Positions 4,540-45,852 of a DNA stretch of 64,000 bases are shown one piece after another. Numbering within the stretch: the first letter of the stretch is position 1; each line of letters starts with the position of its first letter. The stretch is taken from positions 128,001-192,000 of the forward strand of contig CAYLXA010000003.1 of the NCBI GenBank assembly GCA_964387845.1. The letters run 5' to 3'. The notes beneath the pieces were generated by a model. The model saw only the letters and a program-made list of their open reading frames with translations. It was not told the origin of the DNA and searched no databases. Source of the stretch: an uncultured bacterium (GTDB lineage Bacteria; Omnitrophota; Omnitrophia; Omnitrophales; Abzuiibacteriaceae). Position numbers and translations under genes: made by a program.

Positions 4540-4564
4540 AATAATTTTAATCCAAAATGCCAAA

Positions 4565-4585
4565 ATGGCGGAGAGATAGGGATTC
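4565..4585 (-). repeat. 21-nt direct copy of the 3' end of tRNA-Ser(GGA) (tggcggagagatagggattcg), fossil att-like site
   Basis: Exact 21/21 match to 4748-4768. It is followed at 4586-4630 by GC-rich twin hairpins (GCGCG-n5-CGCGC; CGGGT-n5-ACCCG). Confidence 0.6.
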
Positions 4586-4747
4586 GGCGCCCTCCGCGCG
4601 CAATCCGCGCTCCGGGTCGGCCACCCGCCCTGCAAACCTGATGCTCAGCTTTACTTCGCATCATGCAGGGCTCCCTTCGAATCCCTCATGCCACACCGTA
4701 GGCGGCTTCCTCAGCCGCCACGGTGCCGTCATTTTTCATCAGAAAAA

Positions 4748-4839
4748 TGGCGGAGAGATAGGGATTCGAACCCTAGAGACCCCGTTAAGGGCCTACGTAC
4801 TTTCCAGGCACGCCCGTTCGACCGCTCCGGCATCTCTCC
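4748..4839 (-). tRNA. tRNA-Ser(GGA)
   Basis: 92 nt, type II tRNA. Acceptor GGAGAGA/TCTCTCC, anticodon loop CTGGAAA, long variable arm, T-loop TTCGAAT, CCA encoded. Confidence 0.9.
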
Positions 4840-19141: not shown

Positions 19142-19390
19142 AAATCATTTATTTAAAATAACTTACGAGTATATCAGGAGAGGCATTCACAAGTAACAAA
19201 AGTTATTAACAATTATCAACAATAATTAACAAGTTATAAACAGAATAGAAACAACCGTTATTATCCTCAGAATTCTGAGCAAATCAAGCCAAAAACACCA
19301 AATTTAAAGAGCCGTATTTTAGCCACGAAAAAATGAAAAGTCTATTTTTATTTTGGCCCCATCGGGCGAGTTCTGTTATAATGCGCGGCT
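19142..19390. promoter_or_regulatory. Putative oriC / DnaA-box cluster in the dnaA-rpmH divergent intergenic region
   Basis: AT-rich 249 bp with four same-orientation DnaA-box-like 9-mers: TTATTAACA 19203-11, TTATCAACA 19213-21, TTATAAACA 19234-42, TTATCCTCA 19261-69. Confidence 0.55.
19353..19382 (+). promoter_or_regulatory. Sigma70-like promoter for rpmH (TTGGCC-n18-TATAAT)
   Basis: -35 at 19353-58 and -10 TATAAT at 19377-82, 8 nt upstream of the rpmH ATG. Confidence 0.45.
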
Positions 19391-19528
19391 ATGAATCCAA
19401 CATATAATCCATCAAAAAGAAAACGCAAGCGAAAACACGGTTTTTTGAAGCGGTCGAAAACTTCCAAAGGTCGTCAGGTTTTACAGCGCCGTAGACGCAA
19501 GGGCCGGAAGCGTTTAACGACTGTTTAA
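19391..19528 (+). CDS. rpmH: 50S ribosomal protein L34
   Basis: 45 aa, [45 protein letters not shown]. Below the ORF-track size cut-off, found by manual translation. Confidence 0.9.
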
Positions 19529-19572
19529 TAAAAGCAGCCAAGCTGTTCATCCTTTCCGCTATTTCAATTTGA

Positions 19573-19923
19573 ATGCGCCAGTCTTTTTCTAAACAGGAAA
19601 AACTTTCTCGGGCTTCGGATATTCGCCGCGTGCTCCGGTCGCATCAAAGCGCAAGAGGCGGCGGTTTTTCCGTTCAGTGGCGGAGGGCGGACGCGGCACA
19701 GGATCATTCGCGCTTCGGCGTTTTGGTTTCGGCGAAATCAATCAAAGGCGCCGCGAAACGAAACCGAATGAAGCGGCTTGTGCGTGAATTTTTCAGGTTG
19801 AACAAACAGAATTTTCGCTTTAAAGGCGATTTTGTAATTCGCGTGAATGATTATAAGCATTTGAAATATAAAGAGTTAGAGCAAATTTTAAAACCAGTTT
19901 TAACACGCGTAGGTTTGTTTTAA
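19573..19923 (+). CDS. rnpA: Ribonuclease P protein component
   Basis: 116 aa basic protein at the conserved position after rpmH. Confidence 0.85.
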
Positions 19924-20132
19924 TGAAAACAATATTGTTGATCGTTATAGGCTTTTATCAAAAATGGATTTCGCCTTTACTCGGCAATCATTGCCGGTTT
20001 GCACCGAGCTGTTCAGAGTATGCGAAATCGGCGATCGAGCAAAAAGGGATTTTAAAAGGAACCGGCCTCGCTGTTGTGAGAATTTCAAAATGTCATCCGC
20101 TGCACGAAGGCGGCTATGACCCTGTGGTGTAA
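19923..20132 (+). CDS. yidD: Membrane protein insertion efficiency factor YidD
   Basis: 69 aa; conserved ...[11 protein letters not shown]...[11 protein letters not shown]. Confidence 0.85.
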
Positions 20133-20135
20133 ATA

Positions 20136-25906: not shown

Positions 25907-26191
25907 ATGGCGTGTGTTTATGTTATTTATAGTCAGATAAAAGAGAAATTTTACGTAGGTTCGAGCAGAGAAGAAACTGCCACCCAAAGAATTCTATCCC
26001 ACAACGCAGGCAAAACAAGATCAACTAAATCTGGCCGCCCTTGGGTGTTAGTATTTGAAGAACAATTTCTCAACTATACGGAAGCAAGAAAAAGAGAAAA
26101 CTTCTTAAAGTCAGGTGTTGGTAGACAATTTATTAAGCAAAAATGGAGAGGTGCCAGAGCGGTCGAATGGGGCGGTCTCGAAAACCGTTAG
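25907..26191 (+). CDS. Small GIY-YIG nuclease-domain protein (YhbQ/COG2827-like)
   Basis: 94 aa with VYVIYS...KFYVGSS...R...HN...EARKRE matching the GIY-YIG catalytic core. The last about 15 codons are encoded by the 5' part of tRNA-Ser(CGA); the exact 3' end is uncertain. Confidence 0.55.
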   Translation: MACVYVIYSQIKEKFYVGSSREETATQRILSHNAGKTRSTKSGRPWVLVFEEQFLNYTEARKRENFLKSGVGRQFIKQKWRGARAVEWGGLENR

Positions 26192-26231
26192 GCTCTTATG
26201 GGTCTCCTGGGTTCGAATCCCAGCCTCTCCG
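26145..26231 (+). tRNA. tRNA-Ser(CGA)
   Basis: 87 nt type II tRNA; anticodon loop CTCGAAA, T-loop TTCGAAT, no encoded CCA. Confidence 0.85.
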
Positions 26232-26240
26232 ATTATTTTT

Positions 26241-26619: not shown

Positions 26620-27558
26620 ATGGTTAAAAGCGCAACCCTCAATCTGATTTTTTTGATAGCCCTGTCAGGTTGCGCGACAACAGTCGATCCTTCACGGCCG
26701 ATTAGCCCCACACTTCCGCTTTCTTTCAACGATCTTGCCGAAATTCGTGATGGCTATGATCAGCATTTAATCATCATGAAGGAACGAAAATTTTTCAATG
26801 AAGCAGATCTTAATCAATACATTCGCACGATCGGGTACCGGCTGACTTCTGCCTCGGATCGCCCCCATCTCCCGTATCAATTTTTTGTTCTGGATGATGA
26901 TTCGGTGGATGTTTTTAGCTACGGCGGCGGTTATATTTATATCACACGCGGACTCCTAAATTTCGTTGATTCCGAGGCGGAGTTAGCTGCTGTACTCGCA
27001 CACGAAGTTGCTCACGTTGCATCCGGAGCTCATACGCAAGGCGGTCAACAAACATCAACCGGCGGTATGATTTTTGATGCGATGCGTTCAGGCGCGGCTG
27101 CGGCAGGCGGTGCGGTCGGCGGGCCGGCCGGATCCGTCGCAAGCTCGGCGCTTGGCAACGGCATGGAAGTTGTGATACCAAAAATTAAACGGCGCTTCGA
27201 GAAAAACGAGGAAATCGAAGCCGATAGAAAAGCGGTGCATATTTTAATGAAGGCTAATTATGATCCTCGAGAACTTGCAAAGTTTCTTGGGAAAATGTCT
27301 AACATCAAAGTCTACGGAATCGTTCCATATCTGAATTACCTGAATTCACACCCGCCTTACGAGGAGCGCCGGGAGGAATTGATCGATCTGCTGGCGGATA
27401 TTAATTTTAAGTCCCGCGAGTTTAACAAAAATGAAGACCGCTATGTCGCGATCCGCTTTATGACCATGCACGCCGATTCGGTCCCTACGGGAAAAGTTCA
27501 GGTCGTGGCCGTGACCTCCGCGCAAAAAACGCCGCTCGAAACCCCTGCAATTTCCTAA
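26620..27558 (+). CDS. M48-family zinc metallopeptidase, lipoprotein
   Basis: 312 aa; lipobox LSGC; HEXXH in LAHEVAHVASG. Confidence 0.7.
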   Translation: MVKSATLNLIFLIALSGCATTVDPSRPISPTLPLSFNDLAEIRDGYDQHLIIMKERKFFNEADLNQYIRTIGYRLTSASDRPHLPYQFFVLDDDSVDVFSYGGGYIYITRGLLNFVDSEAELAAVLAHEVAHVASGAHTQGGQQTSTGGMIFDAMRSGAAAAGGAVGGPAGSVASSALGNGMEVVIPKIKRRFEKNEEIEADRKAVHILMKANYDPRELAKFLGKMSNIKVYGIVPYLNYLNSHPPYEERREELIDLLADINFKSREFNKNEDRYVAIRFMTMHADSVPTGKVQVVAVTSAQKTPLETPAIS

Positions 27559-27630
27559 TATTTTTGCTTTCCATGCGAAGCAAATTCGGTATGATAATGT
27601 CGTTCTGTTCATCGATAAAGGAAGCAAAAT

Positions 27631-28218
27631 ATGATTTGTCTTGATATGGAAGGCGTTTTGGTCCCCGAGATTTGGATTAATGTCGCCAAGAAAACAAAAA
27701 TCAAAGAATTGCGGCTGACAACGCGCGATATCCCGAATTATGACATCCTCATGAAACGCCGGCTTAAAATCCTGCGTGCCGAGGGAATTAAATTAAAAGA
27801 TATTCAAAAAGTAATCGGCGCAATGGGGCCGCTCCCAGGCGCTAAGCAGTTTTTAGACAAATTGCGTACCCGTGAGCAAGTTTTAATTCTTTCCGACACT
27901 TTCTACGAATTCGCAATGCCGCTCATGAAAAAACTCGGTTACCCGACGCTTTTTTGTAATTGGCTTTCGGTGAACAGCAAAGGGTTTATCAGCGGCTATC
28001 GTCTCCGTCAAAAAAACGGCAAAGAAAAAGCCGTCCGGGCTCTTAAATCCGCCGGTTTTAAGGTGTTTGCAGCGGGGGATTCTTACAATGATATCACCAT
28101 GCTGAAAGCGGCAGACCGGGGGATTCTATTTAATCCGCCGGCCAATATCAAAAAAGAGTTTCCGAAATTCCACGTGGCAAAAAATTATAACGATCTGTTC
28201 CGGCTTCTAACTCAATAA
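27631..28218 (+). CDS. thrH: Phosphoserine phosphatase / homoserine phosphotransferase ThrH-like HAD hydrolase
   Basis: 195 aa closely tracking Pseudomonas ThrH (ICLDMEGVLVPEIWI...TTRDIPNYDILMK...ILSDTFYEF...AAGDSYNDITML). Confidence 0.8.
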   Translation: MICLDMEGVLVPEIWINVAKKTKIKELRLTTRDIPNYDILMKRRLKILRAEGIKLKDIQKVIGAMGPLPGAKQFLDKLRTREQVLILSDTFYEFAMPLMKKLGYPTLFCNWLSVNSKGFISGYRLRQKNGKEKAVRALKSAGFKVFAAGDSYNDITMLKAADRGILFNPPANIKKEFPKFHVAKNYNDLFRLLTQ

Positions 28219-28222
28219 CCCC

Positions 28223-28987
28223 ATGAAAATTCTGTGTTGGAATGTCAACGGCGTCCGGGCCGCCCAGAGAAAGGGGTTTCTCAAATGGCTGGCCAAAGAA
28301 AAGCCCGATGCGCTATGCCTTCAAGAGACCAAAGCCCGCCCCGAACAGCTTGATGAAGAGCTTTTAAACCCGCCCGGGTACGAAACTCACTGGAATTGGG
28401 CCGAGAAGCCCGGCTATAGCGGTACCGCCATCTACACAAAGCAAAAGCCGCTATCCGTCTCTCGCGGCATTGGAATTAAAAAGCACGACCAGGAAGGCCG
28501 CGTGCTGACGGCGGAGTATGACGATTTTTCACTGGTCAACGTTTATGTCCCCAATTCAAAGGATGATCTTTCAAGACTCCCATACCGATTCAAGGAATGG
28601 GATGTTGAGTTCCTGTCATTTCTCAAAAAGCTCGAAAAGAAAAAACCGGTCGTTGTATGTGGGGATTTCAACGTAGCGCACAAAGAAATTGACCTTTCTA
28701 GGCCAAAAGAGAACGAATTTACCCACGGATTCACCAAAGAAGAGCGCGCAGGCTTCGATAATTTCGTAAAAGCCGGTTTGATTGATACTTTCCGCGAATT
28801 CTGCACTGATGGCGGCCATTACACCTGGTGGCATCACTTCAACAATTGCAGGGCGCGCAATATTGGATGGCGGATCGATTATTTCCTGATCTCTAAAGCC
28901 CTCCGGCCTAAGCTCAAGGATGCTTTTATCATGCCCGACGTTATGGGCTCCGATCATTGCCCGGTAGGAATAGACTTAAAATTTTAA
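28223..28987 (+). CDS. xth: Exodeoxyribonuclease III
   Basis: 254 aa; MKILCWNVNG...QETK...DHCPV, the AP-endonuclease fold. Confidence 0.9.
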   Translation: MKILCWNVNGVRAAQRKGFLKWLAKEKPDALCLQETKARPEQLDEELLNPPGYETHWNWAEKPGYSGTAIYTKQKPLSVSRGIGIKKHDQEGRVLTAEYDDFSLVNVYVPNSKDDLSRLPYRFKEWDVEFLSFLKKLEKKKPVVVCGDFNVAHKEIDLSRPKENEFTHGFTKEERAGFDNFVKAGLIDTFREFCTDGGHYTWWHHFNNCRARNIGWRIDYFLISKALRPKLKDAFIMPDVMGSDHCPVGIDLKF

Positions 28988-29199
28988 CATCCCATATTTT
29001 TAAATTACAATAAGTAATAAGTGGGATATTAAATTTTATAATAAGAAATATGTTTGTATAATATCCTAATAATATAGTTAAATTTATAACGTATTGAATA
29101 CATAAAAAATCGGGTTTTATCTGTTAGTATTTTCACCTAAAATCGGGACTTTTCAAAAGTCCGGCACTTTGCAGGCATATTTGTGATATTATTTCCATC

Positions 29200-29601
29200 A
29201 TGACACCAAAAAAAGGAAAGCTTAGCGTCAAATCCAGAGTGAGCAGCCTGAAACATGCGTTCTCGGGCCTTGTGGATATGCTGCTGACAGAGCCGAATGC
29301 GTGGGTTCACATGATTGCCACGGTTCTTGTTCTATTAATGTCGTGGTGGCTTCAAATCAGTATCGGCGGCTTTGTTGCTATTGTCATTGCCATCGGCGGC
29401 GTCTGGATGGCGGAAGCTTTTAACACCGTTCTTGAGATTGTGGTCGATTTGGTATCCTCCGGCCAATATTCGGACGCGGCAAAGCGTGCTAAGGATATCG
29501 CGGCCGCCGCTGTTCTCATTTGGACCGTTGCCGCCAGCCTGATCGGTTTTATCGTTCTCGGCCCGCCGCTTTATGCGCGCCTCCTCCCCCTCTTCTCTTA
29601 A
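29200..29601 (+). CDS. dgkA: Diacylglycerol kinase / undecaprenol kinase (DgkA family)
   Basis: 133 aa; 3 TM helices; signature AEAFNTVLE. Confidence 0.75.
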   Translation: MTPKKGKLSVKSRVSSLKHAFSGLVDMLLTEPNAWVHMIATVLVLLMSWWLQISIGGFVAIVIAIGGVWMAEAFNTVLEIVVDLVSSGQYSDAAKRAKDIAAAAVLIWTVAASLIGFIVLGPPLYARLLPLFS

Positions 29602-29619
29602 ACAACGATTTACCAGCAT

Positions 29620-30010
29620 TTTAACTACGCTCAGGCCCTCGACTCAGCCGACGTTCGGATTTCCCAGCGAGAAATCCTCACTCGACTTCCGGCTGCCCTC
29701 GGCAAGAATAGGCTTCTCAAGAAGCATCTCTCGGAGCTCTTGGGAGCTTGGCTCCCCGCCGTTTTGCTTCGCAAAGCAAAGCAGCGGGGATCCCAAGAGC
29801 GAGAGCGAAGGCACCGAGACGCCGCAGCCCGTCACCCATATTAAATTTTCTATTGAAGGTGAGGGCTGTCCCAATTCTCAAATGAATATACGCCCCAGAC
29901 GCTTTATTGATAATTGGGACAGGAGCGGCTCGAGTGCCGGTGCTGGATGAGAAGTCCATTCTTGCCGCCATGCTCGGGCAGCCTCCAGACGCGTCTTCGC
30001 CGAGGCCTTC
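29620..30010. ncRNA. GC-rich highly structured non-coding island upstream of dnaX (candidate structured ncRNA; identity unresolved)
   Basis: About 390 nt, GC-rich between AT-rich flanks, with overlapping low-complexity ORFs on both strands. Nested helices: GCTCTTGGGA(29738)/TCCCAAGAGC(29793), extendable to about 15 bp; apical hairpin CCCCGCCG-TTTGCTT-CGCA-AAGCAAA-GCAGCGGGG; CTGTCCCAATT/AATTGGGACAG; long-range GCGAAGGC...GAGACGCC(29797-29816)/GGCGTCT...GCCTTCGC(29983-30003). Confidence 0.35.
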
Positions 30011-30072
30011 GCAGTTAAAAATGCTGAATTGGGCGTTGTGGATTAAAGTAAATCGTTGTACAATTCTTCGCT

Positions 30073-31758
30073 ATGTCATATCAAGTCTTCGCGCGCAAGT
30101 TCAGGCCGCAAACTTTTGATGAAGTCATCGGCCAAGAACACATCACCACAACCCTTAAAAATGCGATTAAAAAGGGCCGAGTTGCGCAAAGCTTCCTATT
30201 TTCGGGCTCCCGCGGCGTCGGGAAAACATCCACAGCCCGGATTTTAGCCAAAGCGCTCAACTGCCAAAAGGGCCCCAGCGAAAATCCGTGCGGGAAATGC
30301 CCGAGCTGTGAAGAAATCACGCGCGGCGCAAGCCTTGATGTGCTCGAAATCGACGGTGCATCAAACCGCGGCATCGATGAAATCCGGAATCTTCGCGACA
30401 ACGTCAAATTTAAGCCTTCCAGCGGGCGTTATAAGATTTACATTATTGACGAAGTCCACATGCTGACGGGAGAAGCGTTTAATGCGCTTCTAAAAACACT
30501 TGAAGAGCCTCCGGAACATGTGAAATTTGTTTTTGCGACAACCGAATCGCACAAAGTTCCCCTGACAATCCTTTCAAGGTGCCAAAGGTTTTCATTCCGC
30601 CGCGTTTCCACTTCATTGATTCACGATAAATTGAAGGAAATCTGCAAAAAAGAAAAAATCAAGGCAGGCGAGAAAACACTTTTCCTGATCGCAAAGTCCG
30701 CAGAAGGAAGTTTGCGTGACGGCGAAGGGCTTCTGGACCAAATGTCGAGTTTCGGCGAAGGCGAAATCAAAGAAGACGATGTTTTGTTTTCACTCGGCCT
30801 GACATCGGATGAAACTTATCTTCAATTAATCCGCGCGGTTGAATCGAGAAAATCAAAAGACGTTTTGTCGCTTGTCAGCGAGTTGGTGGATCAAGGGAAA
30901 GACATCGAGCAATTTACCAAAGGCCTTTTGGAGTATTTCCGTGATCTTTTGGTGCTGAAGCTCGGTGATGTAAAGTCCGAATTCATCGAGCGCGATGAAG
31001 AATCGCTCTCGGAGCTTCTGAAATTTTCAGAAAGTTTCAAACGCGAAGAGCTTTTCTTGATTTTAAGCCTGCTTCAGCAGCTTCTCCGGGAAATTAAATG
31101 GTCAAAAAGCCCGCGTTATCTTTTAGAAATTTGCCTGCTCAAAATCGCAAACCGGGAAGAGCTTTCGGCGATTCAAGATATTTTGTCTGAACTCCGGCAG
31201 ATTTCAAAAACACCGGCGCAGTTTTCACCTTCATCAAGCGGTGTTTCCAATTTTCAAGCGGCCTCGTTTCAGGATAAAAAAAAAGCCGTTGAGCGCCCCG
31301 AAATAAAATTCCAACTCAAACCTGCTTTGAAATCCGAGGCAAAAAATCCGGAAGAAACCGCGGTTTCCGCTTACGGCGTGCGCGATATCGATTTTGAAGA
31401 AATGGAGCGCGCCTGGCCGGAACTTTTGTCGCGCGTAAAAACCACCAGGATGTCGGTCGGCACTTATCTTTCGGAATCGGAACCTTTGGAAGTTGCGGGC
31501 AATAAAATTACATTCGGATTTCCGCCGGAATTTAAATTTCATATGGAAAATCTGGAGCATCAGGGCAATAAGGGCTTTATTCAAAAAACGCTCGAGGATA
31601 TTCTGAAAGCGAAAGTGCAAATTCAGTTTGTTGTGGCAAAAGCGGAAAAAATCGAAAAAGTTGTGCCCAAAACCGAACCCGAAAAAGAAAATAATTCAGA
31701 AGTCATTTTGTCCGCGCTGGATATTTTTCAAGGCAGTAAAGTGATCCGGAAAGCTTAG
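30073..31758 (+). CDS. dnaX: DNA polymerase III subunit tau/gamma
   Basis: 561 aa; AAA+ GSRGVGKTS, zinc module CxxC...CxxC, C-terminal tau region. Confidence 0.9.
   Translation: MSYQVFARKFRPQTFDEVIGQEHITTTLKNAIKKGRVAQSFLFSGSRGVGKTSTARILAKALNCQKGPSENPCGKCPSCEEITRGASLDVLEIDGASNRGIDEIRNLRDNVKFKPSSGRYKIYIIDEVHMLTGEAFNALLKTLEEPPEHVKFVFATTESHKVPLTILSRCQRFSFRRVSTSLIHDKLKEICKKEKIKAGEKTLFLIAKSAEGSLRDGEGLLDQMSSFGEGEIKEDDVLFSLGLTSDETYLQLIRAVESRKSKDVLSLVSELVDQGKDIEQFTKGLLEYFRDLLVLKLGDVKSEFIERDEESLSELLKFSESFKREELFLILSLLQQLLREIKWSKSPRYLLEICLLKIANREELSAIQDILSELRQISKTPAQFSPSSSGVSNFQAASFQDKKKAVERPEIKFQLKPALKSEAKNPEETAVSAYGVRDIDFEEMERAWPELLSRVKTTRMSVGTYLSESEPLEVAGNKITFGFPPEFKFHMENLEHQGNKGFIQKTLEDILKAKVQIQFVVAKAEKIEKVVPKTEPEKENNSEVILSALDIFQGSKVIRKA
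31276..31284 (+). other. A9 slippery run inside dnaX (candidate -1 frameshift / transcriptional-slippage site for the gamma subunit)
   Basis: Nine A's in-frame as AAA AAA AAA (KKK, codons 402-404). The -1 frame reads AGC CGT TGA (stop after 2 codons); the +1 frame stops after 6 codons. Confidence 0.5.
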
Positions 31759-39743: not shown

Positions 39744-40093
39744 ATCAAACCTCCCGTTCGTTAAAGCATATTAGCTTTAAGGCTAGAAACCAATGCGCCC
39801 ATGTTGGTAAAGATAAGAATGCATAAAGCGCCATCGCGAGTAATAACATTGCCAAACGTGGCAGGCGATTTTCTGTAGGCAGTCACTTTAAATTTTACTA
39901 CCGTCCCGTTTTCTGTTCAATGATCTTATCGCTGAATAAAGACCGCTTGCGTATATTTTCATGGAATTTTAAAAAAAATTTTATAAATAAATTTAGAAAG
40001 TCCATTTTGCTCAGTTTTGACACGCTCGTTTAATTTTCTTGACGATATTTTTCTAGGATTTAGTCAAACAAAAACGAAAAAGAGAGGTAGCCC

Positions 40094-40291
40094 ATGTATG
40101 AAAAAGAATTAATGGTTTGCGGGTTGAGGCGGCAGCAAAATATTTTGGGTGAATTGATCAACGATCTTAGCGGAAAAAACAGGCTCAGCACCGCAGAATA
40201 TCGCCATTATGACCGGCAAACCAAACAAGTTGAGAAAAGTTTGAAGCAGCTCTTGACGCTTCGCAGCGAACTTCTTGCAGTTCAAAATTAA
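40094..40291 (+). CDS. Small helical hypothetical protein (65 aa), paralogue of the next ORF
   Basis: Good SD AAGAGAGG; helical, no recognisable family (faint DUF465-like). Confidence 0.45.
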   Translation: MYEKELMVCGLRRQQNILGELINDLSGKNRLSTAEYRHYDRQTKQVEKSLKQLLTLRSELLAVQN

Positions 40292-40301
40292 AGGCCCTGA
40301 C

Positions 40302-40520
40302 ATGACAACACAGGAAATAGTTGTGGCCACACTGAAAGATCAGCAGGCGTTGCTTGAAAGCTTAATCACGCAGCTTGAGGGCAGGCCCCGATTTGATGAA
40401 GTAGATTGTCAAATGTACGAAGAAACTTTGAGAGAAATAAGCCAGAATTTAAGCCGGCTCAGAAAATTTCAGAAGCAGCAGTTAAAAACACACGAGAAAG
40501 CCCCTTTTCTTCCCCGCTAA
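40302..40520 (+). CDS. Small helical hypothetical protein (about 72 aa), tandem paralogue
   Basis: Similar pattern to the upstream ORF (LI.QL.G..R.......Y.........L..L). ATG 40302 chosen over the overlapping 40275. Confidence 0.4.
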   Translation: MTTQEIVVATLKDQQALLESLITQLEGRPRFDEVDCQMYEETLREISQNLSRLRKFQKQQLKTHEKAPFLPR

Positions 40521-40545
40521 TTCTTGCCACCCGGCTGGCCGCTTT

Positions 40546-44999: not shown

Positions 45000-45134
45000 T
45001 AGAGCCCTGCACAAAAGTTGCTTTCTGGTCTGTAAACTAGTAAACCCCTTTTACTGCAGAAAGAGGTTTATACTGTTCGGAATGGCAAACTCCAGCGTGC
45101 ATCGGTATGACAGTAGAAATTAAGGAGAGATACC

Positions 45135-45428
45135 ATGAGTGAAGAATTTGAACCCAAAGAGACTGCTTCGAGCCTGGCGCAAAATGATTCTGAAAATACA
45201 GTCGCTATTTTGAATGATATTCAGCAGAAACCTTTCGGAAAATCCGGAAGGCCGTTTAACTGGTTCAATCGGAATCGTTCCGAATCACGCGGAAACGAAT
45301 TCAGGCAAGAAGGATTTTCTTCGCAATCCTCAGGCGCGCGTCATTTTGATAAGCCCCGAGGCGAGGAAAGGCATGATTTTGGCGGGAAAAAGAAGAAATT
45401 TTTTCATCGAGGGAAAAGGCCGCGCTAA
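45135..45428 (+). CDS. Small basic disordered protein (hypothetical; RNA-binding-like tail)
   Basis: 97 aa; strong SD TAAGGAGAG; R/K/G/F-rich C-terminus (...GGKKKKFFHRGKRPR). Confidence 0.5.
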   Translation: MSEEFEPKETASSLAQNDSENTVAILNDIQQKPFGKSGRPFNWFNRNRSESRGNEFRQEGFSSQSSGARHFDKPRGEERHDFGGKKKKFFHRGKRPR

Positions 45429-45448
45429 ATTTGCTGCAAAACTTTACG

Positions 45449-45476
45449 TTGACATCTTGCCGAAACCGTGTAGACT
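45449..45476 (+). promoter_or_regulatory. Sigma70-like promoter TTGACA-n16-TAGACT
   Basis: Perfect -35 hexamer; lies between the 45135 gene's stop and a strong terminator. Confidence 0.4.
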
Positions 45477-45520
45477 CACGCCCGAAGTACATTGGTGAAG
45501 CTTTAAGGATAGTTTGAACA

Positions 45521-45551
45521 CCGCAAGCTTATCATAGCTTGCGGTTTTTTT
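45521..45551 (+). terminator. Intrinsic terminator CCGCAAGCT-TATCAT-AGCTTGCGG-TTTTTTT
   Basis: 9-bp perfect stem plus a U7 tract, 37 nt upstream of the cspA ATG. Confidence 0.7.
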
Positions 45552-45587
45552 GTTTAAGACACCCTGCTTCGCAGAAGGGAAATTAAA

Positions 45588-45791
45588 ATGGCACAAGGTA
45601 CAGTTAAGTGGTTCAATAACGAAAAAGGATTTGGATTCATTGCACCCGAGAATTCCGCGAAAGATGTGTTTGTTCATCATACCGCGATTCAAGGCGAAGG
45701 CTACAAAAGCTTGAACGAAGGTGACAACGTCCAATTTGACATCGTCAGCGGACCCAAAGGCGACCAAGCAGCTAACGTTGTAAAACGTTAA
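45588..45791 (+). CDS. cspA: Cold-shock protein (CspA family)
   Basis: 67 aa; RNP1 KGFGFI and RNP2 VFVHH. Confidence 0.95.
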
Positions 45792-45807
45792 ACGCTTTGA
45801 TTTTTAC

Positions 45808-45845
45808 AAAAACCCCGTTCTCTTGCAAAAGAGAGCGGGGTTTTT
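45808..45845. terminator. Bidirectional intrinsic terminator between cspA and katG
   Basis: AAAA-CCCCGTTCTCTT-GCAA-AAGAGAGCGGGG-TTTTT. Confidence 0.7.
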
Positions 45846-45852
45846 GTGTTTA

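What the first reader, a model, noticed from the sequence alone, without database searches (positions are those of the whole stretch)
29620..30010. About 390-nt GC-rich, highly structured non-coding island between dgkA and dnaX
The composition shifts sharply to GC-rich. Overlapping low-complexity ORFs on both strands argue against coding. Several nested helices are visible: a 10-15 bp helix closing a 3-way region at 29738/29793, an apical 20-bp imperfect hairpin, an 11-bp CTGTCCCAATT/AATTGGGACAG hairpin and a long-range inverted repeat at 29797-29816/29983-30003. ffs (SRP RNA) sits upstream of dnaX in many bacteria, but no clear domain-IV motif (GGAAGCAGC with GNRA loop) could be matched, so the identity is open: a novel structured RNA, a divergent SRP/6S-like RNA, or a MITE with inverted termini.
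Basis: partly seen in the sequence, partly recalled or inferred. Interest (0 to 1): 0.55.

Follow-up and report, generated by a model that had tools for sequence, protein, structure and literature searches.

The report
Orphan foldback insertion upstream of dnaX
The GC-rich, heavily base-paired stretch between dgkA and dnaX is real, but it is a roughly 420-base non-coding insertion found only in this one genome, most likely a hairpin-forming mobile-element-like insert and not SRP, 6S or any other conserved RNA gene.

Summary
Window 29602-30059 folds into one long branched rod of about 164 base pairs (z = -8.4 on +, -9.1 on -). It is the most structured 240-nt window and the most GC-rich intergenic gap of the 64 kb, and it shows no coding signal.

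It is not SRP, 6S or any other Rfam family: a permissive scan gave only junk miRNA hits.

The key result is comparative. Two sister lineages (83-84% DnaX identity; six contigs from five sequencing runs) have a dgkA-dnaX spacer of only 56-62 nt. Two outgroups have 34-43 nt before dnaX. Only window 30026-30066 is homologous to those short spacers. So about 420 nt (roughly 29602-30025) were inserted in this lineage, just upstream of a conserved, probably leaderless, dnaX promoter.

The insert has long imperfect inverted arms and TTAA on both sides of its core. Its GC content (55-57%) looks foreign beside 46% in coding DNA.

No second copy was found in about 73 kb of this genome, other fetched loci, plasmids, phages, IMG/VR or JGI metagenomes. 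The rest of the source genome could not be searched.

Best reading: a MITE-like foldback insertion, family unknown and copy number untested (about 0.45). A newly acquired structured RNA is not excluded.

The parts
29200..29601 (+). dgkA (diacylglycerol/undecaprenol kinase family, 133 aa). Its stop codon TAA at 29599-29601 abuts the element.
   Evidence: ORF. Pfam PF01219 on this product and its orthologues. The C-terminus aligns with relatives.
29602..30025 (.). Lineage-specific non-coding insertion of about 410-424 nt. Boundaries are uncertain by a few nt on the left (29602-29605) and by about 10 nt on the right (30014-30025).
   Evidence: There is no counterpart in the 56-62-nt spacers of L082-L086. 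GC is 55%. No coding signal.
29602..29641 (.). 5' strand of the closing rod P1. It pairs with 30001-30059 in blocks of 12 bp (29602-13/30048-59, perfect), 9 bp (29614-22/30018-26, perfect), then 4+2+5+3 bp. A 21-nt bulge (30027-30047) sits on the 3' side.
   Evidence: mean pair probabilities 0.54-0.99. Both strands of P1 also appear in independent Logan contigs.
29621..29624 (.). Left TTAA. It is a possible target-site duplication or the palindromic end of the inverted repeat. A TTAAA also occurs at 29598-29602.
   Evidence: Read directly from the sequence. The partner is at 30015-30018.
29646..29687 (.). Side hairpin on the left arm, with apical stem GGATTTC/GAAATCC. It has no counterpart on the right arm.
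29691..29728 (.). 5' strand of rod P2, which has 33 bp in four blocks. It pairs with 29939-29983.
   Evidence: I1, I4; pair probabilities 0.96-1.00.
29730..29805 (.). Hairpin A, about 29 bp: a 10-bp base, a 7-nt internal loop and a 16-bp imperfect apical stem.
   Evidence: (I7, I2). The only Rfam 'hits' are generic hairpin matches to miRNA models at E = 0.1-0.4.
29810..29938 (.). Stem P3 (29810-25/29925-38, 13 bp). It carries hairpin B (29826-29867, with an AT-rich 21-nt loop) and hairpin C (29868-29920, CTGTCCCAATT/AATTGGGACAG).
   Evidence: (I3).
29939..30025 (.). Right arm of the insert: the 3' strands of P2 and of inner P1.
30015..30018 (.). Right TTAA.
30026..30072 (+). Ancestral spacer retained from before the insertion. 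It holds a putative dnaX promoter: TTGTGG at 30036-30041, a 17-nt spacer, TACAAT at 30059-30064, and the ATG 8 nt further on, with no Shine-Dalgarno. Positions 30048-30059 form the 3' strand of the outer 12-bp stem.
   Evidence: Positions 30026-30066 are 92.7% identical to the L084-L087 spacers. A -10-like hexamer lies 7-9 nt before the ATG in all five lineages. Promoter function is inferred, not shown.
30073..31758 (+). dnaX (DNA polymerase III gamma/tau, 561 aa), followed by recR.

Best explanation
The element is a lineage-specific, non-coding foldback insertion of about 420 nt. It resembles a MITE, or the remnant of a palindromic mobile element of foreign origin. It landed in the short dgkA-dnaX spacer of this Omnitrophota-like genome, between the dgkA stop codon and dnaX's own promoter, where it disrupts neither gene.

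Shown: the insertion, its architecture, its lack of coding capacity, and the absence of any known RNA-family match.

Inferred:
- It arrived by transposition or illegitimate insertion, possibly at a TTAA.
- It has no dedicated cellular function.
- When dgkA transcription reads into it, it forms a long double-stranded rod at the 3' end of the dgkA message. Other co-transcribed bacterial MITEs and REP elements behave this way, as RNase III substrates or as barriers to 3' exonucleases.

The perfect outer 21 bp pair the first bases of the insert with ancestral promoter-region sequence. They may be a later extension of the palindrome by templated mutation, or the remains of a hairpin that was the insertion target.
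For: Empty sites. Sister lineages P0002 and P0003 (83-84% DnaX identity to the window and 84% to each other) have spacers of 62 and 56 nt in five spacer-spanning contigs from five sequencing runs; a sixth contig, L087, starts 63 nt upstream of dnaX and reaches no dgkA. Outgroups at 64% and 60% identity have 34 and 43 nt before dnaX, in conserved synteny.

Homology. Only window 30026-30066 matches the short spacers.

Composition. The insert is 55-57% GC, against 46% for coding DNA and 24-47% for other intergenic gaps.

Architecture. The arms 29602-29728 and 29939-30059 are inverted copies with 74-100% complementary blocks. TTAA flanks the core on both sides. The length is under 500 bp.

Pairing. 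158 of 164 predicted pairs are Watson-Crick, and the G.U counts (6 on +, 12 on -) give no significant strand preference. That is what a DNA-level palindrome would show.

Coding. No coding signal.

Expression signals. No convincing promoter or terminator of its own on the + strand.

Family definition. Prokaryotic MITEs are described as <500 bp, with TIRs and direct repeats that decay with age, giving transcripts with very stable stem-loops, at 1 to hundreds of copies per genome (PMC10969869).
Against: No second copy or related IS was found anywhere. The searches covered the 64-kb window, 9 kb beyond it, 0.5 Mb of relatives' loci, plasmids and phages, IMG/VR and JGI metagenomes with 12 back-translated patterns on both strands.

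MITEs are typically AT-rich, and this element is GC-rich.

The inverted arms are long and imperfect rather than forming short sharp TIRs.

TTAA is palindromic, so it cannot be told apart from part of the inverted repeat.

The central third is itself built of three well-formed hairpins, which a passive transposon core does not need.

The perfect complementarity of the first 21 nt to ancestral flank sequence is not explained by simple cut-and-paste insertion. The chance of the 12-mer alone is about 3e-6 by my estimate.
Confidence: 0.45

Rival explanations
1. A horizontally acquired gene for a new large structured non-coding RNA of about 400-460 nt, rod-shaped with a three-hairpin head. It would be transcribed on its own or processed out of the dgkA transcript.
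For: The fold is extreme: z = -8 to -9 and the top outlier of the window. The architecture is branched with well-defined local hairpins, not only end-to-end complementarity. The - strand folds better and has twice as many G.U pairs (12 against 6). The - strand also carries a promoter-like site at 29913-29885 and a small G.U-dependent hairpin followed by a U-rich tail at 29902-29890. The position just upstream of dnaX is where ffs lies in many bacteria (established knowledge).
Against: There is no Rfam match. No homologue exists in any collection, so there is no covariation. The element is absent from the closest relatives. Only 4-7% of pairs are G.U, and the 6-against-12 asymmetry is not significant (one-sided binomial about 0.12). 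No convincing terminator is present. The - strand promoter and terminator matches are within the chance expectation of the scan (5 found against 1.5 +/- 1.4, and 4 found against 2.0 +/- 1.4, over 1.3 kb).
Confidence: 0.2
2. A cis-acting element shaped at this locus. The rod would close over the region between dgkA and the dnaX promoter and act as an mRNA 3' stabiliser or insulator. It might instead act as a DNA cruciform that modulates the leaderless dnaX promoter, because its outer 12-bp stem includes the promoter spacer at 30048-30059.
For: The perfect 12-bp and 9-bp outer stems pair the first 21 nt after the dgkA stop with ancestral promoter-proximal sequence, looping out the 21 nt that carry the -35-like hexamer. 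The left-strand sequence has no counterpart in relatives (partial output). Chance is very unlikely.
Against: The relatives manage without it. About 420 nt of foreign-composition sequence cannot have arisen locally. Nothing was found that shows selection as opposed to templated mutation in a quasi-palindrome.
Confidence: 0.15
3. An assembly artefact: a chimeric or mis-joined core inside a metagenome-assembled contig.
For: An independent Logan assembly of run SRR15237813 breaks on both sides inside the element. The dgkA contig ends at window 29672 and the dnaX contig starts at 29997. The core 29673-29996 is therefore seen only in the window's own assembly.
Against: Both junctions, and 71 nt plus 29 nt of insert sequence (29997-30025), are reproduced exactly by the independent assembly, and those two pieces pair with each other as P1. 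The inverted repeats are imperfect (74-94%), unlike amplification or assembly palindromes. The core is coherently nested with the verified ends.
Confidence: 0.05
4. A small protein-coding gene: the 125-aa ORF at 29573-29950 (+) or the 84-aa ORF at 29717-29971 (-).
For: Open frames of 115-135 codons exist on both strands.
Against: There is no Pfam hit and no real homologue among billions of proteins. Codon-usage scores fall below the mean of true genes: the two named ORF frames score below the true-gene minimum, and the best frame (+0.08, 77 codons) only just exceeds it. No gene was called here in the source records, since the ORFs are not in the protein collection. Mirrored ORFs are expected in a GC-rich palindrome.
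Confidence: 0.02

Closest known systems
Prokaryotic MITEs that fold as co-transcribed hairpins (Neisseria Correia/CREE, enterobacterial ERIC, Coxiella QMITE2)
   Same: Under 500 bp, no ORF, intergenic, and inverted ends that give a very stable stem-loop transcript. An empty site is seen in relatives, and there may be a short target duplication (TTAA; Correia elements use TA). Sources: PMC10969869 and PMC2649163 (abstract) for RNase III binding of CREE.
   Different: No second copy or parent IS was found. The element is GC-rich rather than AT-rich. The arms are about 100 nt long and imperfect. It is larger than most families. The core is itself three hairpins. The outer stem uses host flank sequence.
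REP/BIME clusters
   Same: GC-rich extragenic palindromes at the 3' ends of genes within operons, which fold in the mRNA (established knowledge; PMC3184786 abstract).
   Different: BIMEs are mosaics of a repeated unit of about 35 nt. No repeated unit was found here (direct-repeat families of 13 nt or less), and there are no other copies in the window.
SRP RNA (ffs), which lies upstream of dnaX in many bacteria
   Same: Genomic position upstream of dnaX, and a rod-like fold.
   Different: There is no match to the small or large bacterial SRP models at E <= 10. The element is absent from the same spacer in close relatives. It is about 420-460 nt, against roughly 100-270 nt.
6S RNA and 6S-like rods
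   Same: A long irregular double-stranded rod.
   Different: There is no Rfam match. It is more than twice the length, has a branched head instead of a central bubble, and is not conserved in relatives.
Large structured bacterial RNAs, some of them linked to mobile elements (HEARO/omega RNA, OLE, GOLLD, ROOL)
   Same: Size class and extreme predicted structure. HEARO is associated with mobile elements.
   Different: None of these families matches. There is no adjacent TnpB/IscB or other partner gene. All of those families are defined by covariation across many homologues, which is lacking here.

Membership tests
Prokaryotic MITE | Length under about 500 bp and no transposase or other ORF | tested here: met
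   The insert is about 410-424 nt. No coding signal.
Prokaryotic MITE | Terminal inverted repeats | tested here: inconclusive
   The inverted arms are clear but long and imperfect, e.g. CAGCATTTT-AACTACG against CAGCATTTTTAACTGCG, then 74-81% blocks. The exact termini cannot be fixed from a single copy.
Prokaryotic MITE | Target-site duplication flanking the element | tested here: inconclusive
   TTAA lies at 29621-24 and 30015-18, and TTAAA at 29598-602 and 30015-19. It is 4-5 nt and palindromic, so it cannot be distinguished from part of the inverted repeat or from chance.
Prokaryotic MITE | Presence/absence polymorphism (empty site in related genomes) | tested here: met
   Spacers are 56-62 nt in two sister lineages and 34-43 nt before dnaX in two outgroups. 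These are different species (83-84% DnaX identity), not strains.
Prokaryotic MITE | Multiple copies in a genome and/or a related autonomous IS with the same ends | tested here: inconclusive
   No copy in about 73 kb of the same genome and none in any public collection searched.
Prokaryotic MITE | AT-rich composition (typical, not obligatory) | tested here: not met
   55-57% GC against 45-46% for the window.
Bacterial SRP RNA (RF00169 / RF01854) | Match to the covariance model, including the domain IV helix 8 motif | tested here: not met
   cmscan of 29500-30150 on both strands at E <= 10 found only miRNA-model hairpin hits. A gathering-threshold scan of the window found only tRNAs.
Bacterial SRP RNA (RF00169 / RF01854) | Universal and essential, hence conserved in close relatives | tested here: not met
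   Absent from the orthologous spacer in all relatives examined. Whether ffs lies elsewhere in these genomes was not testable.
6S RNA (RF00013) | Covariance-model match; a rod of about 180 nt with a central bubble | tested here: not met
   No hit. The predicted fold is a 458-nt rod with a three-hairpin head.
Conserved structured ncRNA of any new class | Homologues with covariation that supports the helices | tested here: not met
   No homologue was found in any collection, so no covariation test was possible.
Conserved structured ncRNA of any new class | Transcription as a discrete RNA | not testable with these tools
   No expression data were available. Consensus promoter and terminator matches lie within the chance range.

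The most novel reading that the evidence does not exclude
The insert is a self-contained, horizontally moving RNA or DNA element of a kind not yet described. It would be a rod of about 420 nt whose terminal 21 nt are complementary to two segments of the flanking target, looping out the -35 region of the dnaX promoter. That would mean either a mobile structured RNA gene or a foldback element that selects or remodels its target by base pairing with it.
Probability: 0.1. Interest if true: 0.65.

Novelty: new member of a known kind. Interest (0 to 1): 0.3.

Why it matters
If it is a MITE-like insert, it is a small addition: mobile elements of Omnitrophota are barely described, and a full-text search found no paper pairing Omnitrophota with MITEs. 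It would then be an example of a hairpin element tolerated immediately upstream of the promoter of an essential replication gene.

Its practical value is as a caution. Extreme predicted structure next to dnaX, in the classic ffs position, does not identify an RNA gene. The empty sites in sister genomes settle that here.

It would matter more if the core proved to be a transcribed, strand-specific RNA, or if the flank-complementary ends proved to be part of an insertion mechanism. Neither can be tested without the full source genome, its reads or expression data.

Tried and rejected
- **Rfam.** A gathering-threshold scan of the whole window and a permissive scan of 29500-30150 gave only tRNAs elsewhere and generic miRNA-hairpin matches. 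This rejects SRP, 6S, RNase P, tmRNA, group I/II introns, HEARO, OLE and the other large RNAs in Rfam.
- **Copies in the window.** blastn with word size 7 and TIR pattern searches with 3 mismatches found none.
- **Relatives through DnaX in genome contigs.** None of the 80 loci resembles the element.
- **Element ORFs used as bait for other copies.** Five frames were concatenated and searched against the 5.8-billion-protein index, with no hit. A full HMMER search with the 125-aa ORF gave two hits that are summed weak matches to tandem-repeat proteins.
- **Frames used as pseudo-proteins.** Twelve degenerate patterns were scanned across JGI metagenomes and six across IMG/VR. Pattern matches occurred, but none was confirmed. 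One exact 20-mer in IMG/VR gave nothing.
- **blastn 'distant' against plasmids and phages.** No match.
- **Extending the genome.** About 9 kb beyond the right end of the window was obtained (L091) and holds no copy. Two look-ups at the left end failed because the proteins are not on record with those start codons.
- **Strand assignment from G.U asymmetry.** 6 against 12, not significant.
- **Other large intergenic gaps.** Checked for similar foldbacks; only ordinary terminator hairpins were found.
- **Literature.** Nothing on Omnitrophota MITEs or on run SRR15237813.
- **Covariance model.** I considered building one from the single sequence and dropped it. The element exceeds the column limit, and only dnaX loci were available to search.

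Full report
**What is there**

The window carries dgkA (29200-29601, +; Pfam DAGK_prokar on this product and its orthologues). It also carries dnaX (30073-31758, +), followed by recR. The 471-nt gap between dgkA and dnaX is the most GC-rich intergenic gap in the window. It is 53% GC overall, 55% for 29602-30025 and 57% for 29625-30014. Coding DNA is 45.8% and the other 27 gaps are 24-47%.

**Structure**

The sequence from 29602 to 30059 folds into one nested structure of about 164 base pairs. The minimum free energy is -205.4 kcal/mol on the + strand (z = -8.4) and -221.5 on the - strand (z = -9.1). As ssDNA, z is -8.9, and none of 100 shuffles did as well. A 240-nt sliding scan of all 64 kb ranks 29641-29880 first, at z = -8.3 against a mean of -0.3 and sd of 1.5.

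The anatomy:
- **Closing rod P1:** 29602-29641 pairs with 30001-30059. Its outer 12 bp and 9 bp are perfect, and a 21-nt bulge sits on the 3' side.
- **Side hairpin:** 29646-29687.
- **Second rod P2:** 29691-29728 pairs with 29939-29983 (33 bp).
- **Head:** hairpin A (29730-29805), then stem P3 (29810-25/29925-38), which bears hairpins B (29826-67) and C (29868-920).

The fourth (29797-816/29983-30003) is weak and is replaced by stronger long-range pairs.

**Not coding**

- Six frames give no Pfam hit.
- Five concatenated frames find nothing in the word-indexed protein collection, not even a self-hit, so no gene was called here in the source records.
- A full HMMER search with the 125-aa ORF returns only two long tandem-repeat proteins, whose weak similarity is summed over nine repeats.
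- Codon-usage log-odds of the open frames are -0.41 to +0.08 bits per codon. True genes in this window score 0.25 +/- 0.09, with a minimum of 0.04.

**Not a known RNA**

cmscan at gathering thresholds finds only tRNAs in the window. A permissive scan of 29500-30150 at E <= 10 finds only generic hairpin matches of hairpin A to two miRNA models. This excludes SRP, 6S, RNase P, tmRNA, intron and ribozyme models, and the large ornate RNAs held in Rfam.

**The decisive comparison**

DnaX places the organism among Omnitrophota-like bacteria, going by the named hits. Only two lineages are close:
- P0002 is 83% identical.
- P0003 is 84% identical.
- The two are 84% identical to each other.

In five contigs from five sequencing runs, the dgkA-dnaX spacer of these lineages is 62 nt (L082, L083) or 56 nt (L084-L086). 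A sixth contig, L087, begins 63 nt upstream of dnaX, so it does not reach dgkA and gives no spacer length.

Two outgroups (64% and 60% identity) keep the peptidase M48 - HAD - (exo/endonuclease-phosphatase) - dnaX synteny. They have 34 and 43 nt before dnaX.

blastn shows that only window 30026-30066 matches the short spacers, at 92.7% identity. Nothing matches 29602-30025. The short spacer is therefore ancestral, and about 410-424 nt were inserted in the window's lineage. An essential housekeeping RNA at a conserved locus would not show this pattern.

**Where it landed**

All five lineages have a -10-like hexamer 7-9 nt before the dnaX ATG and no Shine-Dalgarno sequence. The hexamer is TACAAT, TAGAAT or TAAAAT. 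In the window and its two sisters, a TTGnnn lies 17 nt upstream of the hexamer.

I infer that dnaX has its own promoter and a leaderless mRNA; this is not shown. The insert lies between the dgkA stop codon and this promoter, so neither gene is disrupted.

As RNA on the + strand, the insert would be the 3' trailer of dgkA transcripts. There is no U-tract terminator after the rod.

**Features that point to a foldback or MITE-like insertion**

- The size is under 500 bp and there is no ORF.
- The composition is foreign to the host.
- The left arm (29602-29728) and right arm (29939-30059) are inverted copies, with 74-100% complementary blocks.
- TTAA lies on both sides of the core, at 29621-24 and 30015-18.
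- 158 of 164 pairs are Watson-Crick. The G.U counts (6 on +, 12 on -) show no significant strand bias, as expected for a DNA-level palindrome rather than an RNA selected on one strand.
- This fits the published description of prokaryotic MITEs: <500 bp, TIRs, direct repeats that decay with age, very stable transcript hairpins, and 1 to hundreds of copies per genome (PMC10969869).

**Features that do not fit**

No second copy or parent IS was found. The searches covered:
- the window;
- 9 kb beyond it;
- 0.5 Mb of relatives' loci;
- plasmids and phages;
- IMG/VR;
- JGI metagenomes, scanned with twelve degenerate patterns on both strands.

The rest of the source genome could not be searched.

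Other points against a simple MITE:
- The element is GC-rich, whereas MITEs are typically AT-rich.
- The arms are long and imperfect.
- The central third is itself three good hairpins.

**An unexplained detail**

The first 21 nt of the insert (29602-29622) are perfectly complementary to two segments on the right. These are 30048-30059, which is ancestral, and 30018-30026, of which at least TGCTG looks ancestral by comparison with L082. The two segments are separated by the 21 nt that carry the -35-like hexamer. The relatives have no counterpart of the left strand (partial output).

By my estimate the chance of the 12-mer alone is about 3e-6. Three explanations are possible:
- The palindrome was extended outward later, by templated mutation.
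- The element inserted at the TTAA tip of a pre-existing hairpin. Removing the core and one TTAA leaves CAGCATTTT-A-AAAATGCTG.
- Selection favoured a closed rod.

I cannot decide between them.

**Assembly check**

An independent Logan assembly of run SRR15237813 reproduces both junctions exactly, but it breaks inside the element:
- The dgkA contig ends at window 29672.
- The dnaX contig starts at 29997.

The outer rod P1 is therefore doubly supported. The core is seen only in the window's own assembly. The breaks could reflect a repeat, a coverage dip over a hairpin, or ordinary fragmentation; the same contigs also break inside a tRNA gene and inside a protein-coding gene. The imperfect repeats argue against an amplification or assembly palindrome.

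**Verdict**

SRP and 6S are rejected.

| Reading | Confidence |
|---|---|
| Orphan, lineage-specific foldback insertion of MITE-like character, co-transcribed with dgkA as a long double-stranded rod and without a dedicated function | about 0.45 |
| Horizontally acquired structured RNA gene | about 0.2 |
| Locus-specific cis element | about 0.15 |
| Assembly artefact | about 0.05 |
| Small protein-coding gene | about 0.02 |

With a single copy and no homologues, covariation, copy number and expression all remain untested. Interest is modest.

Noticed in passing
window 4564-4839: tRNA-Ser(gga) lies at 4748-4839 (-). A 23-nt direct duplicate of its 3' end (AATGGCGGAGAGATAGGGATTCG) sits at 4564-4586. 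The roughly 160 nt between them are GC-rich and form the second most structured 240-nt window (z = -7.2). This looks like an att-type remnant of an element integrated at the tRNA, or a partial tRNA duplication. The whole-window Rfam gathering scan missed this tRNA.
   Followed up: partly
window 26144-26232: ARAGORN finds tRNA-Ser(cga) (+), but the whole-window Rfam gathering scan does not list it. A Logan contig of the same sample starts 7 nt inside this tRNA.
   Followed up: no
window 30036-30075; L082 1445-1517; L084 2931-3003; L088, L089 about 2431-2503: dnaX has no Shine-Dalgarno sequence. A -10-like hexamer (TACAAT, TAGAAT or TAAAAT) lies 7-9 nt before the ATG in all five lineages, which suggests a leaderless dnaX mRNA made from its own promoter.
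   Followed up: partly
L082, L084, L088, L089 compared with window 26620-30073: dgkA itself is a clade-specific addition to the conserved peptidase M48 - HAD - exo/endonuclease-phosphatase - dnaX - recR block. It is present in the window and its two sister lineages and absent in the 60-64% outgroups.
   Followed up: no
window 29672 and 29997 (L090 end, L081 start): Independent Logan contigs of run SRR15237813 stop inside the element on both sides, and the protein collection holds no ORF from the missing core. This could mean a repeat, a coverage dip over the hairpin, or ordinary fragmentation.
   Followed up: partly
window 45806-45847: A near-perfect 19-bp hairpin (ACAAAAACCCCGTTCTCTT/AAGAGAGCGGGGTTTTTGT) has A/T runs on both sides. 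It looks like a bidirectional intrinsic terminator and shows what ordinary terminators look like in this genome.
   Followed up: no
window 19142-20135, 39744-40545, 45000-45852: Three intergenic gaps of 800-1000 nt contain no ORF of 120 aa or more. They were checked only for inverted repeats, and their content was not examined further.
   Followed up: no
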